From Escherichia phage HMD-9, in the sequence record PV287714.1: a stretch of DNA of 64,000 nucleotides. The stretch is one strand, 5' to 3'. The number at the start of each line of letters is the position of its first letter. Position 1 is the first letter of the stretch. Shown piece after piece: positions 12,447 to 61,938 of the stretch. Both the position numbers and the translations under genes were made by a program. A model generated the notes under the pieces. It was not told the DNA's origin. It saw nothing but the letters and a program-made list of their open reading frames with translations, and made no database searches.

Positions 12447-14157
12447 TAACCTTAATTGGTTTGTTGGTGTTGTTGAAGATAGAATGGACCCATTAAAATT
12501 AGGTCGTGTTCGTGTTCGTGTGGTTGGTTTGCATCCACCTCAAAGAGCGCAAGGCGACGTAATGGGTATTCCAACCGATAAATTACCATGGATGTCAGTT
12601 ATTCAACCTATAACTTCTGCAGCAATGTCTGGAATTGGAGGTTCTGTTACTGGACCGGTAGAAGGAACTAGAGTTTATGGTCATTTTTTAGACAAATGGA
12701 AAACTAATGGAATTGTCCTTGGCACGTATGGTGGAATAGTTCGCGAAAAGCCTAATAGACTTGAAGGATTTTCTGACCCAACTGGACAGTATCCTAGACG
12801 TCTAGGAAATGATACTAACGTATTAAACCAAGGCGGAGAAGTAGGATATGATTCGTCTTCTAATATTATCCAAGATAGCAATCTAGACACTGCGATAAAT
12901 CCTGATGATAGACCGCTATCAGAGATTCCAACTGATGATAATCCAAATATGTCAATGGCTGAAATGCTTCGCCGTGATGAAGGATTAAGACTAAAAGTTT
13001 ATTGGGATACTGAAGGATATCCGACAATTGGCATTGGTCATCTTATCATGAAGCAGCCAGTTCGTGATATGACTCAAATTAATAAAGTTTTATCAAAACA
13101 AGTTGGTCGTGAAATTACCGGAAATCCAGGTTCTATTACAATGGAAGAAGCGGTAACTTTATTTGAACGTGATTTGGCTGATATGCAACGTGACATTAAA
13201 TCACATTCTAAAGTTGGCCCAGTTTGGAAAGCAGTTAATCGTTCTCGTCAAATGGCATTAGAAAATATGGCATTTCAGATGGGTGTTGGCGGTGTAGCTA
13301 AATTTAACACAATGTTAACAGCTATGTTAGCCGGAGATTGGGAAAAAGCATATAAAGCTGGTCGTGATTCATTGTGGTATCAACAAACAAAAGGCCGTGC
13401 ATCTCGTGTTACCATGATTATTCTTACAGGGAATTTGGAATCATACGGTATTGAAGTGAAAACACCGGCTAGGTCTTTGTCTGCAATGGCTGCTACTGTA
13501 GCAAAGTCTTCTGATCCAGCTGACCCTCCTATTCCGAGTGATTCGAGAATTTTATTTAAAGAACCTGTTTCTTCATATAAAGGTGAATATCCGTATGTTC
13601 ATACAATGGAAACTGAAAGCGGTCATATTCAGGAATTTGATGATACCCCTGGGCAAGAACGATACAGATTAGTTCATCCGACTGGAACATATGAGGAAGT
13701 ATCACCGTCAGGAAGAAGAACAAGAAAAACTGTTGACAATTTGTATGATATAACAAATGCTGATGGTAATTTTTTGGTAGCTGGCGATAAAAAGACTAAC
13801 GTCGGTGGATCAGAAATTTACTACAACATGGATAATCGTCTTCACCAAATAGATGGAAGCAACACAATATTTGTCCGCGGCGATGAAACTAAGACGGTTG
13901 AAGGTAATGGAACTATCCTAGTCAAAGGTAATGTTACTATTGTAGTTGAAGGTAATGCTGACATTACAGTTAAAGGGGATGCTACTACTTTAGTTGAAGG
14001 AAACCAGACTAATACAGTAAATGGAAATCTTTCTTGGAAAGTTGCTGGGACAGTTGATTGGGACGTTGGTGGTGATTGGACAGAAAAAATGGCATCTATG
14101 AGTTCTATTTCATCTGGTCAATACACAATTGATGGATCGAGGATTGACATTGGCTAA
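12430..14157 (+). CDS. 5: gp5 baseplate hub / tail lysozyme
   Basis: 575 aa; N-terminus MEMISNNLNWFVGVVED..; internal lysozyme domain MAEMLRRDEGLRLKVYWDTEGYPTIGIGHL paralogous to e; C-terminal VEGN repeats. Confidence 0.95.
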   Translation: MEMISNNLNWFVGVVEDRMDPLKLGRVRVRVVGLHPPQRAQGDVMGIPTDKLPWMSVIQPITSAAMSGIGGSVTGPVEGTRVYGHFLDKWKTNGIVLGTYGGIVREKPNRLEGFSDPTGQYPRRLGNDTNVLNQGGEVGYDSSSNIIQDSNLDTAINPDDRPLSEIPTDDNPNMSMAEMLRRDEGLRLKVYWDTEGYPTIGIGHLIMKQPVRDMTQINKVLSKQVGREITGNPGSITMEEAVTLFERDLADMQRDIKSHSKVGPVWKAVNRSRQMALENMAFQMGVGGVAKFNTMLTAMLAGDWEKAYKAGRDSLWYQQTKGRASRVTMIILTGNLESYGIEVKTPARSLSAMAATVAKSSDPADPPIPSDSRILFKEPVSSYKGEYPYVHTMETESGHIQEFDDTPGQERYRLVHPTGTYEEVSPSGRRTRKTVDNLYDITNADGNFLVAGDKKTNVGGSEIYYNMDNRLHQIDGSNTIFVRGDETKTVEGNGTILVKGNVTIVVEGNADITVKGDATTLVEGNQTNTVNGNLSWKVAGTVDWDVGGDWTEKMASMSSISSGQYTIDGSRIDIG

Positions 14158-36668: not shown

Positions 36669-36865
36669 TGGAAGGTTTAATTGAAGCTATTAAATCAAAC
36701 GACCTCGTAGCCGCTCGTAAATTATTTGCTGAAGCCATGGCTACAAGAACGATTGATTTAATTAAAGAAGAAAAAATCGCTATCGCTCGTAATTTCTTAA
36801 TCGAAGGTGAAGAACCTGAAGACGACGAAGACGAGGATGATGACGAAGACGAGGATGATGAATAA
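36668..36865 (+). CDS. 67: gp67 prohead core protein (acidic tail)
   Basis: 65 aa; [25 protein letters not shown].. with DE-rich C-terminus; TAATG overlap with gene 20. Confidence 0.8.
36824..36859 (+). repeat. 18-nt tandem duplication GACGAAGACGAGGATGAT x2 encoding the acidic gp67 tail
   Basis: two exact adjacent 18-mers at 36824-36841 and 36842-36859. Confidence 0.7.
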
Positions 36866-60348: not shown

Positions 60349-60614
60349 TATTCATCCTTCAGAGTTTGGTTTACAGCTCTATTATAAATCAATTCATCAT
60401 TAAGCTCAGTCAAAGACTTATGATATGTGGTTCTAACTTTATTTCCTTGCATCCAGTGCTTGATATAAATGAAACCTTGCTCTACACATTTTTTAAAAAT
60501 TCGTTCGTCTTTTTGAGCTCGGAACTCTGGATTGCATCTAAAAAATTGATTTACGTGACCGTAATCACGTGTAGTATTACCTTCATTTTCATAAATAGTG
60601 TGAACAACAAACAT
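60348..60614 (-). CDS. hypothetical protein (30.1 position)
   Basis: 88 aa ORF. Confidence 0.55.
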   Translation of the reverse strand: MFVVHTIYENEGNTTRDYGHVNQFFRCNPEFRAQKDERIFKKCVEQGFIYIKHWMQGNKVRTTYHKSLTELNDELIYNRAVNQTLKDE

Positions 60615-61477
60615 TAGAATGCTCCTTGAAAAATATTATCACCACTAGTAAGTCTATTAAAATACCCTGCGTCGCCAGGCTTAATATAACTCCACGTGTG
60701 GAATGGATTCATATGATACGGGTGTGTATAATATGGATTATATGGATGTGTATAATATGGATGATATGGATTTAATCCAGGCGTTCTCCAAGTAGTGTTC
60801 CAAGGAAAAGAATCGTTTTTAACCATCTTCTCAATTACATCTTTTATAGCTTTTTCACTATCAAAACTTTCTTTATTTTCCTTTGGTGAAAAAAGCTTAT
60901 TCTCTACATCGTTCCATGTATAAACTCGCTGTGCAGTTTTTGGAATACTGTCACGCTCTCCTCGAGCCATCCAATAAACTGGAACATTTAATATTTCACT
61001 CGCGTGATCGCAGTGGTGAGCGAGATCATCAATATAACAAATTACGTTATATTTCTCTTTTGCCTTTTTGAACAACTCTTCTTTTGAAGAATCATGACCA
61101 CACATCAGTACTTCTGAAAAGGCACCAGGAAAAAGAGCATTCAAATTAAATTGACGATTCAGCAGAGCGTCAATAGAATCACCCAGTGCTGTAACAGCTA
61201 CAAAATTATAATCTTCTTTTAATTTGTTAATTACACACAGAGCATCTTTATATGGAGACAAATAACGAATAAAATCTGATCGATTATATTTTTCAATTAA
61301 CTTGACACCAAGTTCTTCATCACAATTAAAGAGTTTACCCGGAGAAATAAATTTCTCATCTTGGATCATTTTTAAAATATGTTCTAACGGAAGATTATAT
61401 TTCTGAGCAAAATAAGGAAGGCCTGATTGCCAGCTTAAACATACTCCATCAATATCAGTCAAAATAGTTGGCTTCAT
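60614..61477 (-). CDS. HAD-superfamily hydrolase-like protein with C-terminal His/Pro/Tyr repeat (30.2 position)
   Basis: 287 aa; motif I LTDIDGV, motif II VAVTA, motif IV YIDD..D; C-terminal NPYHPYYTHPYNPYYTHPYH. Confidence 0.6.
   Translation of the reverse strand: MKPTILTDIDGVCLSWQSGLPYFAQKYNLPLEHILKMIQDEKFISPGKLFNCDEELGVKLIEKYNRSDFIRYLSPYKDALCVINKLKEDYNFVAVTALGDSIDALLNRQFNLNALFPGAFSEVLMCGHDSSKEELFKKAKEKYNVICYIDDLAHHCDHASEILNVPVYWMARGERDSIPKTAQRVYTWNDVENKLFSPKENKESFDSEKAIKDVIEKMVKNDSFPWNTTWRTPGLNPYHPYYTHPYNPYYTHPYHMNPFHTWSYIKPGDAGYFNRLTSGDNIFQGAF
60724..60771. repeat. 24-nt tandem duplication x2 inside the 30.2-like ORF
   Basis: GTGTATAATATGGATTATATGGAT then GTGTATAATATGGATGATATGGAT (one mismatch); in frame, encodes the HPY repeat. 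Confidence 0.8.
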
Positions 61478-61938
61478 AGAGAGTCTCTTAATAGGTTTAA
61501 CACATCAATAAATTCAGCTTCGGTTAGTATTGTATCATCTTTTGTTAGACCACTAGCCATGCTGTGCTTCAAAACTTTTCCTTTCGAGGCTTGTAATGCA
61601 TCACGAAAGCCCCTGTTTTGGATCGCTGCTTCAAAATATGCATTTGTATATAATTCTTTCCACGCCGGGGAGTATCTTGAAAACGGAACTCCAAGCCAAA
61701 AGAGGGTCCCACGGTCCTGAGCTCTAGCATAAGATCGTCCAGCTTGTCGGGCGGCAAGCCCGGATAACCCAAATATGCGTCTTTGCTGTTCAACATTTTT
61801 CACCTTACACCCTTGGAGGAATCCTTCGAGACCTCCAAATTGAATACCATCCATAACGAAAGGCCATTGGGCGAAATTACTTAATGCACATGATGGCCAT
61901 TTAAAATTGCTTCTTATCTCTAGCTCAGACATTTTCAA
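61474..61938 (-). CDS. NADAR/YbiA-like (DUF1768-type) protein (30.3 position)
   Basis: 154 aa; LSNFAQWPFVMDGIQFGGLEGFLQGCKV and SGLAARQAGR resemble YbiA FSNFAAWPIKVDGKTWPTSEHYFQAQKF and SPMVAARMGR, aligned from memory only. Confidence 0.55.
   Translation of the reverse strand: MKMSELEIRSNFKWPSCALSNFAQWPFVMDGIQFGGLEGFLQGCKVKNVEQQRRIFGLSGLAARQAGRSYARAQDRGTLFWLGVPFSRYSPAWKELYTNAYFEAAIQNRGFRDALQASKGKVLKHSMASGLTKDDTILTEAEFIDVLNLLRDSL

What the first reader, a model, noticed from the sequence alone, without database searches (positions are those of the whole stretch)
60614..61477. HAD-like hydrolase with a recently duplicated His-Pro-Tyr C-terminal repeat
The ORF has HAD motifs I, II and IV (LTDIDGV, VAVTA, YIDD..D), consistent with a nucleotidase or phosphatase. 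Its C-terminus (NPYHPYYTHPYNPYYTHPYH) is encoded by a 24-nt tandem duplication (60724-60771) differing at one base, so the expansion is recent and the repeat is probably length-polymorphic. The repeat could be a metal-binding or interaction tail.
Basis: partly seen in the sequence, partly recalled or inferred. Interest (0 to 1): 0.45.

Follow-up and report, generated by a model that had tools for sequence, protein, structure and literature searches.

The report
T4 gp30.2: HAD phosphatase, slippery tail
This is the phage T4 gene 30.2 orthologue: an ordinary, well-conserved HAD-family phosphatase most like 5'(3')-deoxyribonucleotidases, followed by a disordered Pro/Tyr/His-rich tail in which an 8-codon repeat is present in one, two or three copies in different T4-like phages.

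Summary
ORF 60614-61477 (minus strand, 287 aa) is the orthologue of phage T4 gene 30.2, in the T4 order 30.3 - 30.2 - 30.1 - DNA ligase - alt.1 - alt.

Residues 1-200 are a HAD-superfamily domain:
- All four motifs sit at canonical positions (D8-x-D10, T96, K132, D150-D151).
- Pfam and NCBIfam do not recognise the protein, but half of its distant relatives match Pfam NT5C, and their profile hits a solved deoxyribonucleotidase-like structure (3bwv, E 1.4e-6).
- The domain is under strong purifying selection (dN/dS 0.02-0.07).

The 24-nt duplication at 60724-60771 differs at one base; chance expectation is about 1e-7 per window. Copy number varies as predicted: 1 (D5505), 2 (this window and about 58 of 499 records) and 3 (BYEP01). 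Other in-frame indels occur nearby.

The repeat lies in a predicted disordered tail, 33 residues before the C-terminus. His-richness is not conserved in other genera, which weakens the metal-binding idea.

Substrate and tail function remain untested. Some GenBank records already carry HAD or deoxyribonucleotidase labels. This is a solid but modest finding.

The parts
60614..61477 (-). Complete ORF, 287 aa: orthologue of phage T4 gene 30.2. Its ATG overlaps the TGA of 30.3 (ATGA, 61474-61477). Its TAA overlaps the ATG of 30.1 (TAATG, 60612-60616).
   Evidence: It is 95% identical over nt 1-733 to T4 30.2 (NC_000866) and 99.8% identical to phage Pu-Krd-SF4. It matches PHROG 420 at E 2e-89.
60878..61477 (-). 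HAD-superfamily catalytic core plus C1-type helical cap (residues 1-200). The cap helices lie between motif I and motif II, roughly residues 16-86.
61448..61456 (-). HAD motif I, D8-I-D10 (nucleophile and general acid/base Asp), at the end of strand beta-1.
   Evidence: D8 and D10 are invariant in A1, A2 and A3. The model has a strand at residues 4-8.
61190..61192 (-). HAD motif II, T96, at the end of strand beta-2 (VAVTALG).
   Evidence: At least 90% conserved in A1 and A2. The model has a strand at residues 91-96.
61082..61084 (-). HAD motif III, K132, just before helix 133-142.
   Evidence: Invariant in A1, A2 and A3. Helix position.
61025..61030 (-). HAD motif IV, D150-D151 ('DD' type, Mg2+ ligands), at the end of strand beta-4.
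   Evidence: At least 90% conserved in A1 and A2; D151 is at least 90% conserved in A3. The model has a strand at residues 145-150.
60818..60859 (-). Linker helix (residues 207-220) between the enzyme domain and the disordered tail.
   Evidence: Helix 207-220 in model 1. The Klebsiella-phage homologue model has a longer helix at 194-223.
60617..60817 (-). Predicted disordered Pro/Tyr/Trp/His/Asn-rich tail (residues 221-287). It is present only in a subset of T4-like phages.
   Evidence: pLDDT falls to 36-58 over residues 221-287 in the window model and is below 50 from residue 224 in the homologue model. Composition. 46 of the 85 homologues the script could parse (100 retrieved) have a tail of at least 40 aa, but only 8 of 142 distant representatives exceed 240 aa.
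60713..60771 (-). 24-nt (8-codon) tandem repeat array, 2.5 copies. It encodes (N)PYHPYYTH / PYNPYYTH / PYHMNPFH. The two full units are 60724-60771 and differ at one base (His238 CAT versus Asn246 AAT).
   Evidence: The allelic series of 1, 2 and 3 copies in related phages is shown.
60647..60688 (-). Distal tail box YIKPGDAGYFNRLT (residues 264-277). This is the window-type variant of the motif G(T)GIEYLxxQPT, which is conserved at this position across genera (T4: YIKPGGIEYLYNRPT).
   Evidence: Alignment A4. The motif regex matched 16 of 46 tailed homologues. Tail alleles are listed.
60622..60627 (-). AAGGAG Shine-Dalgarno sequence of the downstream gene 30.1. It is embedded in the last codons of 30.2 (F-Q-G-A-F).
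   Evidence: Read directly from the sequence. The same terminal codons are kept in all Tequatrovirus alleles aligned except the truncated KMB42 allele.

Best explanation
The ORF encodes the T4 gp30.2 protein, which has two parts.

Part 1, residues 1-200: a Mg2+-dependent phosphomonoesterase of the HAD superfamily with a C1 helical cap. It belongs to a large, mostly phage-borne branch that is closest to the 5'(3')-deoxyribonucleotidase (NT5C) family.
- Inferred mechanism: D8 attacks the phosphate to form an aspartyl-phosphate. D10 acts as general acid/base. T96 and K132 hold the phosphoryl group. D150 and D151 hold Mg2+.
- The most likely substrate is a (deoxy)nucleoside monophosphate. That would make the enzyme a modulator of the nucleotide pool during infection.

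Part 2, residues 221-287: an intrinsically disordered tail, attached through a helix.
- It is a lineage-specific appendage built from short NPY/HPY-type units.
- These units make the DNA prone to replication slippage or unequal recombination.
- Such events produced the 24-nt duplication seen here and the 1-, 2- and 3-copy alleles in sister phages.
- The repeat most likely acts as a variable-length spacer. It lies between two conserved tail boxes, W-x-TPG and YIKPG...Y-x-NR-x-T, which are candidate short linear docking motifs.

Shown here: the fold, the motifs, the selection on the enzyme domain and the copy-number polymorphism.
Inferred only: catalysis, substrate class and tail function.
For: Identity and context:
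- The gene lies in the T4 order 30.3 / 30.2 / 30.1 / ligase / alt.1 / alt.
- 519 phage records match it.

HAD fold:
- The four motifs are invariant or at least 90% conserved.
- They sit at the ends of strands beta-1, beta-2 and beta-4 and before a helix, as in canonical HADs.
- The 50 best Foldseek hits listed are all HAD enzymes, E down to 2e-8.

NT5C link:
- The weak direct hits point to cytosolic deoxyribonucleotidase 2jao.
- Those alignments put the invariant W16 opposite the Phe of its DGVLADF motif.
- 42 of 88 distant relatives, each found by the domain profile at E of 1e-19 or better, match Pfam NT5C, best E 4e-10.
- Their profile hits 3bwv at E 1.4e-6 over its full length, and mitochondrial deoxyribonucleotidase at E 0.003.
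- A phage enzyme of this Pfam family, PBS1 Dtm, is an experimentally shown dTMP phosphatase (PMC12697855).

Selection: dN/dS of the enzyme domain is 0.02-0.07.

Tail and repeat:
- Two independent models give low pLDDT for the tail.
- The allelic series has 1, 2 and 3 units, plus 3-, 9- and 15-nt indels.
- A 60-record sample shows nine length values; the eight full-length ones differ by multiples of 3.
- The W-x-TPG and GIEYL-x-x-QPT boxes are conserved across genera.
Against: - The protein itself has no significant hit in Pfam, including NT5C, or in NCBIfam. The NT5C assignment is therefore transitive.
- T4 recycles host dNMPs into its own DNA (general knowledge), so a broad dNMP nucleotidase would seem wasteful. 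No nucleotidase role for 30.2 was found in the literature searched.
- Tail function is unproven. Most relatives lack the tail. One phage, KMB42, carries a frameshifted, truncated tail. The window allele has a degenerate version of the conserved distal motif.
- Conservation of the last codons is at least partly explained by the embedded ribosome-binding site of gene 30.1.
- In-frame maintenance could partly serve translational coupling to 30.1 rather than tail function.
Confidence: 0.7

Rival explanations
1. gp30.2 is a nucleic-acid end-healing 3'-phosphatase that works with the neighbouring ATP-dependent DNA ligase. It would resemble the HAD phosphatase domain of T4 polynucleotide kinase and would prepare nicks or ends for ligation.
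For: - The HAD gene stays within three genes of the DNA ligase gene in distant T4-like phages, even with a different gene order. In an Acinetobacter phage the order is 30.3 - HAD - ligase - Alt-type ADP-ribosyltransferase (on the opposite strand). In contig L029 it is ligase - x - x - HAD.
- There is a weak PHROG match to polynucleotide kinase, E 0.0024.
- One of 88 distant relatives matches Pfam HAD_PNKP.
Against: - 42 of 88 relatives match NT5C and only 1 of 88 matches HAD_PNKP.
- Gene order is broadly conserved in T4-like genomes, so adjacency is weak evidence.
Confidence: 0.08
2. gp30.2 is a HAD phosphatase for a non-canonical small molecule rather than a bulk dNMP. Candidates are a sugar phosphate, a damaged or modified nucleotide, an NAD/ADP-ribose-derived phosphate, or a host immune-signalling nucleotide. 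Its role would be host takeover or counter-defence.
For: - 20 of 88 relatives match the generic Pfam Hydrolase model and 18 of 88 match HAD_2.
- The gene lies in an early, non-essential-looking region near the ADP-ribosyltransferase Alt.
- A broad dNMPase would conflict with T4's nucleotide economy (general knowledge).
Against: - There is no match to PADLOC defence-related models.
- The only sequence-level links to characterised enzymes are to 5'(3')-deoxyribonucleotidases and pyrimidine nucleotidases (3bwv, mdN, SSM1/SDT1).
- The invariant W16 aligns with the Phe of the DGVLADF motif of cdN/mdN. From memory, that Phe contacts the substrate base.
Confidence: 0.2
3. The His-Pro-Tyr repeat is a metal-binding tail (Zn2+, Ni2+ or Cu2+), and copy number tunes metal affinity.
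For: The window tail has 5 His and 9 Tyr in 65 residues, and each repeat unit adds one or two His.
Against: - His makes up only 1.8% of tail residues in homologues from other genera, where Pro and Trp dominate.
- T4 itself has a shorter version (NPYNPYHPYQTHPF), and many relatives have no tail.
- No Cys/His pattern typical of structural metal sites is present, and the segment is predicted disordered.
Confidence: 0.05
4. The duplication is a sequencing or assembly artefact, or the tail is non-functional sequence drifting freely.
For: - Short repeats are error-prone in assemblies.
- One relative, KMB42, has a 28-nt duplication that truncates the tail.
- Most relatives lack the tail.
Against: - The same 2-copy allele occurs in independently sequenced phages from Russia (Pu-Krd-SF4), in Yersinia phage PST, and in Shigella and other E. 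coli phages.
- The eight full-length length values in the 60-record sample differ by multiples of 3. If the seven differences from the window length arose independently, the chance that all are in frame is about (1/3)^7, or 5e-4.
- The W-x-TPG and GIEYL-x-x-QPT boxes are conserved across genera.
Confidence: 0.05

Closest known systems
5'(3')-deoxyribonucleotidase family (Pfam NT5C, PF06941): human cdN/mdN, S. epidermidis 3bwv, Bacillus phage PBS1 dTMP phosphatase Dtm
   Same: - HAD core with a C1 helical cap of similar size, about 170-200 aa.
- Motif I is D-x-D-G-V followed by an aromatic residue six positions after the second Asp.
- Motif IV is of the 'DD' type.
- 42 of 88 relatives match PF06941.
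- PBS1 Dtm shows that phages use this family to dephosphorylate a dNMP (PMC12697855).
   Different: - The window protein does not reach any reportable score against PF06941.
- It belongs to a separate, unnamed branch (PHROG 420, 'unknown function').
- It carries a disordered, repeat-containing tail of about 85 residues that is absent from NT5C enzymes.
- Its substrate is unknown. T4 keeps thymine (general knowledge), so the PBS1 rationale of dTMP removal does not transfer.
T4 gene 30.2 (NP_049815) and its Tequatrovirus orthologues
   Same: - Same gene at the same locus.
- 95% nucleotide identity over the first 733 nt.
- The enzyme domain differs at 4 residues.
- Some GenBank records already label orthologues 'haloacid dehalogenase-like hydrolase domain-containing protein' (HY01, PEC04) or "5'-3' deoxyribonucleotidase" (vb_GEC_SH_GT).
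   Different: - T4 has a shorter tail (278 aa) with NPYNPYHPYQTHPF instead of the duplicated NPYYTHPY unit.
- T4 has the consensus distal box GGIEYLYNRPT instead of GDAGYFNRLT.
- Tail identity drops to about 80%.
T4 polynucleotide kinase/phosphatase (Pnkp), HAD phosphatase domain
   Different: Pnkp's phosphatase domain is capless and acts on polynucleotide 3' ends (established knowledge). gp30.2 has a C1 cap and no kinase domain. Only 1 of 88 relatives matches HAD_PNKP.
In-frame coding tandem repeats (VNTR/minisatellite-like length polymorphism in low-complexity protein tails)
   Same: - Head-to-tail units that are near-identical at the DNA level.
- Unit length is a multiple of 3.
- Copy number of 1-3 differs among close relatives.
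- Additional small in-frame indels occur in the same stretch.
   Different: - Only 1-3 copies.
- No evidence of on/off phase variation.
- The one out-of-frame allele (KMB42) comes from a different 28-nt duplication.

Membership tests
HAD superfamily | Motif I, DxD, at the C-terminal end of strand beta-1 | tested here: met
   D8 and D10 are invariant in alignments of 90, 35 and 88 sequences. The model has a strand at residues 4-8.
HAD superfamily | Motif II, Ser/Thr, at the end of strand beta-2 | tested here: met
   T96 is at least 90% conserved in A1 and A2. The model has a strand at residues 91-96.
HAD superfamily | Motif III, a conserved Lys preceding the helix upstream of strand beta-4 | tested here: met
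   K132 is invariant in all three alignments. The helix at 133-142 follows it.
HAD superfamily | Motif IV, acidic residues (DD, or GDxxxD) at the end of strand beta-4 | tested here: met
   D150 and D151 are at least 90% conserved in A1 and A2, and D151 is at least 90% conserved in A3. The model has a strand at residues 145-150.
HAD superfamily | Rossmannoid alpha/beta core fold shared with solved HAD enzymes | tested here: met
HAD superfamily | Mg2+-dependent phosphoryl transfer through an aspartyl-phosphate intermediate | not testable with these tools
   Needs an enzyme assay with D8N and D10N controls.
5'(3')-deoxyribonucleotidase family (Pfam NT5C, PF06941) | Score above the Pfam gathering threshold for PF06941 | tested here: not met
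   hmmscan of the 287-aa protein lists no NT5C match even at E up to 1. The 200-aa domain alone gives no Pfam family at E up to 0.01 (part A).
5'(3')-deoxyribonucleotidase family (Pfam NT5C, PF06941) | Homology to family members by profile or transitive search | tested here: met
   42 of 88 distant relatives, each found at E of 1e-19 or better by the domain profile, match PF06941 with best E 4.2e-10. Their profile hits 3bwv at E 1.4e-6 over its full length and mdN at E 0.003.
5'(3')-deoxyribonucleotidase family (Pfam NT5C, PF06941) | C1-type helical cap inserted between motifs I and II, with an aromatic residue following motif I | tested here: met
   Helices at 16-26, 32-40, 46-49, 54-65, 68-71 and 77-86 lie between D10 and T96. 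The invariant W16 aligns with the Phe of DGVLADF in 2jao. The base-contacting role of that Phe is recalled from memory, not tested.
5'(3')-deoxyribonucleotidase family (Pfam NT5C, PF06941) | Hydrolysis of dNMPs or NMPs | not testable with these tools
   Needs a substrate screen.
Pnkp-type polynucleotide 3'-phosphatase (HAD_PNKP) | Capless (C0) HAD core that gives access to polynucleotide ends | tested here: not met
Length-polymorphic coding tandem repeat | Near-identical head-to-tail units whose copy number differs among close relatives | tested here: met
   The two 24-nt units differ at 1 base. Relatives carry 1 copy (D5505), 2 copies (the window, PST and SH_GT; about 58 records have the window-type tail) or 3 copies (BYEP01).

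The most novel reading that the evidence does not exclude
The disordered tail may be a rapidly evolving docking module. Its conserved boxes (W-x-TPG and G-I-E-Y-L-x-x-Q-P-T) would recruit the nucleotidase to a phage or host complex, for example the T4 dNTP-synthesising or replication machinery, or the neighbouring ligase. The slippage-prone NPY/YTHPY spacer would let phage lineages retune the length of that tether quickly, possibly under host-specific pressure. On this reading, gp30.2 would be a spatially targeted nucleotide-pool editor rather than a free housekeeping phosphatase.
Probability: 0.12. Interest if true: 0.5.

Novelty: new member of a known kind. Interest (0 to 1): 0.2.

Why it matters
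T4 is the best-studied phage, yet gene 30.2 still has no assigned function. This analysis places it, together with more than a thousand related protein clusters, in the NT5C-like branch of HAD phosphatases. That gives a concrete and cheap biochemical test: a phosphatase screen on dNMPs, including dCMP, hm-dCMP and dUMP.

If it proves to be a nucleotidase, it adds an unaccounted step to the T4 nucleotide-pool scheme.

The repeat polymorphism is a small example of in-frame slippage shaping a disordered phage protein tail, and could serve as a strain-typing marker for Tequatrovirus isolates.

None of this overturns current understanding. Several GenBank records already carry the HAD annotation.

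Tried and rejected
- Pfam, NCBIfam and PADLOC scans of the protein gave no significant family. PHROGs gave only 'unknown function'.
- A single-sequence search and the first profile search of the PDB gave only marginal hits, E 1.6 and 0.079 to 2jao. The link became significant only with the profile of distant relatives.
- Literature searches for gp30.2, 'gene 30.2' and 30.2/30.3 with T4 found nothing relevant. The numeric hits were unrelated.
- I tested whether the tail is a module shared with other phage genes. tblastn of a consensus-type tail against 50,697 phage genomes found one place per genome, always the 30.2 gene. A regex scan of the six-frame translation of the window found the tail motifs only in this ORF.
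- I tested whether the conserved distal motif folds or docks. A second AlphaFold run on a Klebsiella-phage homologue, with a tail-containing alignment, left residues 224-289 below pLDDT 50. There is no evidence for intramolecular docking.
- I looked for a promoter or terminator signal in the repeat. The promoter-like count in the region equals the shuffle expectation, 20 against 18.4, so this was rejected.
- The neighbour gp30.3 gave no solved-structure homologue that could inform function.
- The viral-contig scan returned only 10 loci. The allele survey therefore relied on BLAST against the phage collection plus 18 fetched regions.
- The script did not parse the T2 allele, so T2 is not in the allele table.
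Full report
**What is there.** The window comes from a T4-like phage (Tequatrovirus).
- The ORF at 60614-61477 on the minus strand is 287 aa.
- It is 99.8% identical at the DNA level to a gene of Escherichia phage Pu-Krd-SF4.
- It is 95% identical over its first 733 nt to T4 gene 30.2. Altogether 519 phage records match.
- Gene order is that of T4: 30.3 (Pfam Phage_30_3), 30.2, 30.1 (DUF3045), DNA ligase gp30, alt.1 and alt.
- The start overlaps the 30.3 stop (ATGA). The stop overlaps the 30.1 start (TAATG).
- The last codons, F-Q-G-A-F, contain the AAGGAG ribosome-binding site of 30.1.

**Checking the observation.** The quoted motifs and the peptide NPYHPYYTHPYNPYYTHPYH are present.
- The two 24-nt units at 60724-60771 differ at exactly one base, which changes His238 CAT to Asn246 AAT.
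- TRF reports period 24, 2.5 copies, score 97 at 60713-60771, with a 9-nt sub-period that encodes Asn-Pro-Tyr.
- Such a pair is expected 9e-8 times per window by chance, and none appeared in 300 shuffles.
- The repeat is not at the very C-terminus; 33 residues follow it.

**The enzyme domain.** Pfam, NCBIfam and PADLOC do not recognise the protein. PHROGs places it in family 420, 'unknown function'.

Homologues and conserved residues:
- A search of 5.8 billion proteins returned 100 homologues, the named ones all from T4-like (Straboviridae) phages. They are either about 200 aa or 240-350 aa long.
- In a 90-sequence alignment, D8, D10 and K132 are invariant, and T96, D150 and D151 are at least 90% conserved.
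- The same holds for a 35-sequence alignment of the domain alone. In 88 relatives that are only 21-41% identical, D8, D10 and K132 remain invariant and D151 is at least 90% conserved.

Structure:
- AlphaFold gives pLDDT 93-98 over residues 1-190.
- The motifs fall where HAD motifs I-IV belong: at the ends of strands 4-8, 91-96 and 145-150, and just before helix 133-142.
- A helical cap lies between motifs I and II.
- Foldseek against the PDB returns only HAD enzymes, best E 2.3e-8.

The HAD assignment is therefore secure.

**Which kind of HAD enzyme.** Direct sequence evidence is weak: 2jao, a cytosolic 5'(3')-deoxyribonucleotidase, at E 1.6 and 0.079. The link becomes solid by a transitive route:
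- A profile of the domain, scored against 1.84 billion cluster representatives, finds 1380 relatives at E of 1e-3 or better. They are mostly 190-215 aa.
- Of 88 distant ones, 42 match Pfam NT5C (PF06941), 20 match the generic Hydrolase model and 18 match HAD_2.
- Their profile hits 3bwv at E 1.4e-6 over its full length. It then hits pyrimidine nucleotidases (SSM1/SDT1) and mitochondrial deoxyribonucleotidase.
- The invariant W16 aligns with the Phe of the DGVLADF motif of cdN. From memory, that Phe contacts the base of the substrate; I treat this as a lead only.
- A phage member of PF06941, PBS1 Dtm, has been shown to be a dTMP phosphatase (PMC12697855).

The DxD motif and the C1 cap point to a small-molecule phosphatase (established HAD knowledge). 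A (deoxy)nucleoside monophosphate is the best guess for the substrate. The window protein itself does not pass the NT5C model, so I file it as a relative of NT5C, not a member.

The domain is under strong purifying selection. dN/dS is 0.02-0.07 against T4, PST, G8 and PP01.

**The tail and the repeat.** Residues 207-220 form a helix. Beyond it, pLDDT falls to 36-58.
- A second model, of a Klebsiella-phage homologue built from tail-containing sequences, is also below pLDDT 50 from residue 224 to the end.
- The window tail is rich in Pro, Tyr, Thr, Asn, His and Phe.

I fetched 18 Tequatrovirus alleles. They form a clear series for the unit NPYYTHPY (24 nt):

| Phage | Copies | Protein length |
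|---|---|---|
| D5505 | 1 | 279 aa |
| window, Pu-Krd-SF4, PST, SH_GT | 2 | 287 aa |
| RPN226 | 2 plus an extra NPY | 290 aa |
| Shfl2 | 2 plus an SG duplication | 289 aa |
| BYEP01 | 3 | 295 aa |

- Among the best 60 of 498 matching records, only BYEP01 matches the three-copy query without a gap.
- About 58 of 499 records carry the window-type tail.
- Other in-frame events occur in the same stretch: 3-, 9- and 15-nt indels, a 9-nt NPF/HPF duplication and a 9-nt duplication that adds Ser-Gly.
- An evenly spaced sample of 60 records shows nine length values for the last 287 nt. The eight from full-length matches differ by multiples of 3.
- One phage, KMB42, has a 28-nt duplication that truncates the protein at 253 aa.

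'Recent' needs tempering, because the two-copy allele is shared by phages whose 30.2 bodies differ by dS about 0.15.

**Is the tail functional?**

For function:
- The reading frame is maintained across nearly all alleles.
- Two boxes flanking the repeat are conserved across genera: F-P-x-x-W-x-x-P-G and G-(T)-G-I-E-Y-L-x-x-Q-P-T.

Against function:
- Most relatives have no tail. The median length of distant representatives is 203 aa.
- Other genera carry unrelated C-terminal extensions.
- The window allele has a degenerate distal box, GDAGYFNRLT.
- The conserved last codons double as the 30.1 ribosome-binding site.

Other points:
- The tail occurs at only one place per genome, so it is not a module shared with other genes.
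- His is only 1.8% of tail residues across homologues, so a conserved metal-binding role is unlikely.
- My reading is a disordered spacer of variable length that carries one or two short docking motifs. This is inference.

**Rivals.** A DNA-end 3'-phosphatase working with the adjacent ligase is suggested by conserved HAD-ligase proximity in distant phages and by weak Pnkp similarity. The C1 cap and the 42:1 ratio of NT5C to PNKP matches among relatives argue against it. A non-nucleotide or signalling-molecule substrate cannot be excluded.

**Novelty and verdict.** The gene is a known T4 ORF of unknown function. Some GenBank records already call orthologues HAD-like hydrolases or deoxyribonucleotidases. 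No paper on gp30.2 was found. The additions here are the NT5C-like placement through bridging profiles, the four-motif and fold verification, and the documented 1-, 2- and 3-copy series. This is a sound, modest finding with interest about 0.2.

Noticed in passing
window 61474-61938 (-), and 61569-61796 (-): The upstream gene is the T4 30.3 orthologue (Pfam Phage_30_3, E 1.4e-69). No solved-structure homologue was found by sequence. The 75-aa ORF inside it, in another frame, corresponds to T4's annotated internal gene 30.3'.
   Followed up: partly
L030 3517-6181 (Acinetobacter phage, MH460829.1) and L029 2922-5591 (metagenomic contig): The HAD gene stays close to the ATP-dependent DNA ligase gene in distant T4-like phages, even though the order differs. 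It is 30.3 - HAD - ligase in the Acinetobacter phage and ligase - two small ORFs - HAD in L029. This is a possible functional link or simply conserved synteny.
   Followed up: partly
L013 31-792 (Escherichia phage vB-Eco-KMB42): This 30.2 allele carries a 28-nt duplication just after the W-R-T-P-G codons. It shifts the frame and truncates the protein at 253 aa. It is either a natural tail-less variant or a sequencing error.
   Followed up: partly
proteins P0015, P0066/P0069, P0084 (homologues): Other lineages attach different C-terminal extensions to the same HAD domain. P0015 is an in-frame fusion with the 30.1/DUF3045 protein. Yersinia phage phiR1-RT-like proteins (P0066, P0069) carry an unrelated extension of about 110 aa. 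P0084 carries a Cys-rich extension of about 150 aa. The C-terminus of this family appears to be a hot spot for appendages.
   Followed up: no
window 13901-14026 (+): 24/48-nt tandem repeats lie inside a 575-aa ORF that looks like the T4 gp5 baseplate hub/lysozyme. They encode the VxGxxxxx units of its C-terminal beta-helix, a known feature of gp5.
   Followed up: partly
window 36824-36861 (+): A perfect 18-nt tandem duplication (GACGAAGACGAGGATGAT, 2.1 copies) encodes an acidic D/E run. It lies immediately upstream of ORFs that I take, from recalled T4 gene order and product sizes, to be gp68, the gp21 protease and the gp22 scaffold. It is another candidate length-polymorphic coding repeat.
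   Followed up: no
L026 922-1189 (Escherichia phage vB_EcoM-RPN226): In this phage the gene downstream of 30.2 (30.1/DUF3045) is annotated as two short overlapping CDSs instead of one gene of about 89 aa. This suggests a frameshift in 30.1.
   Followed up: no
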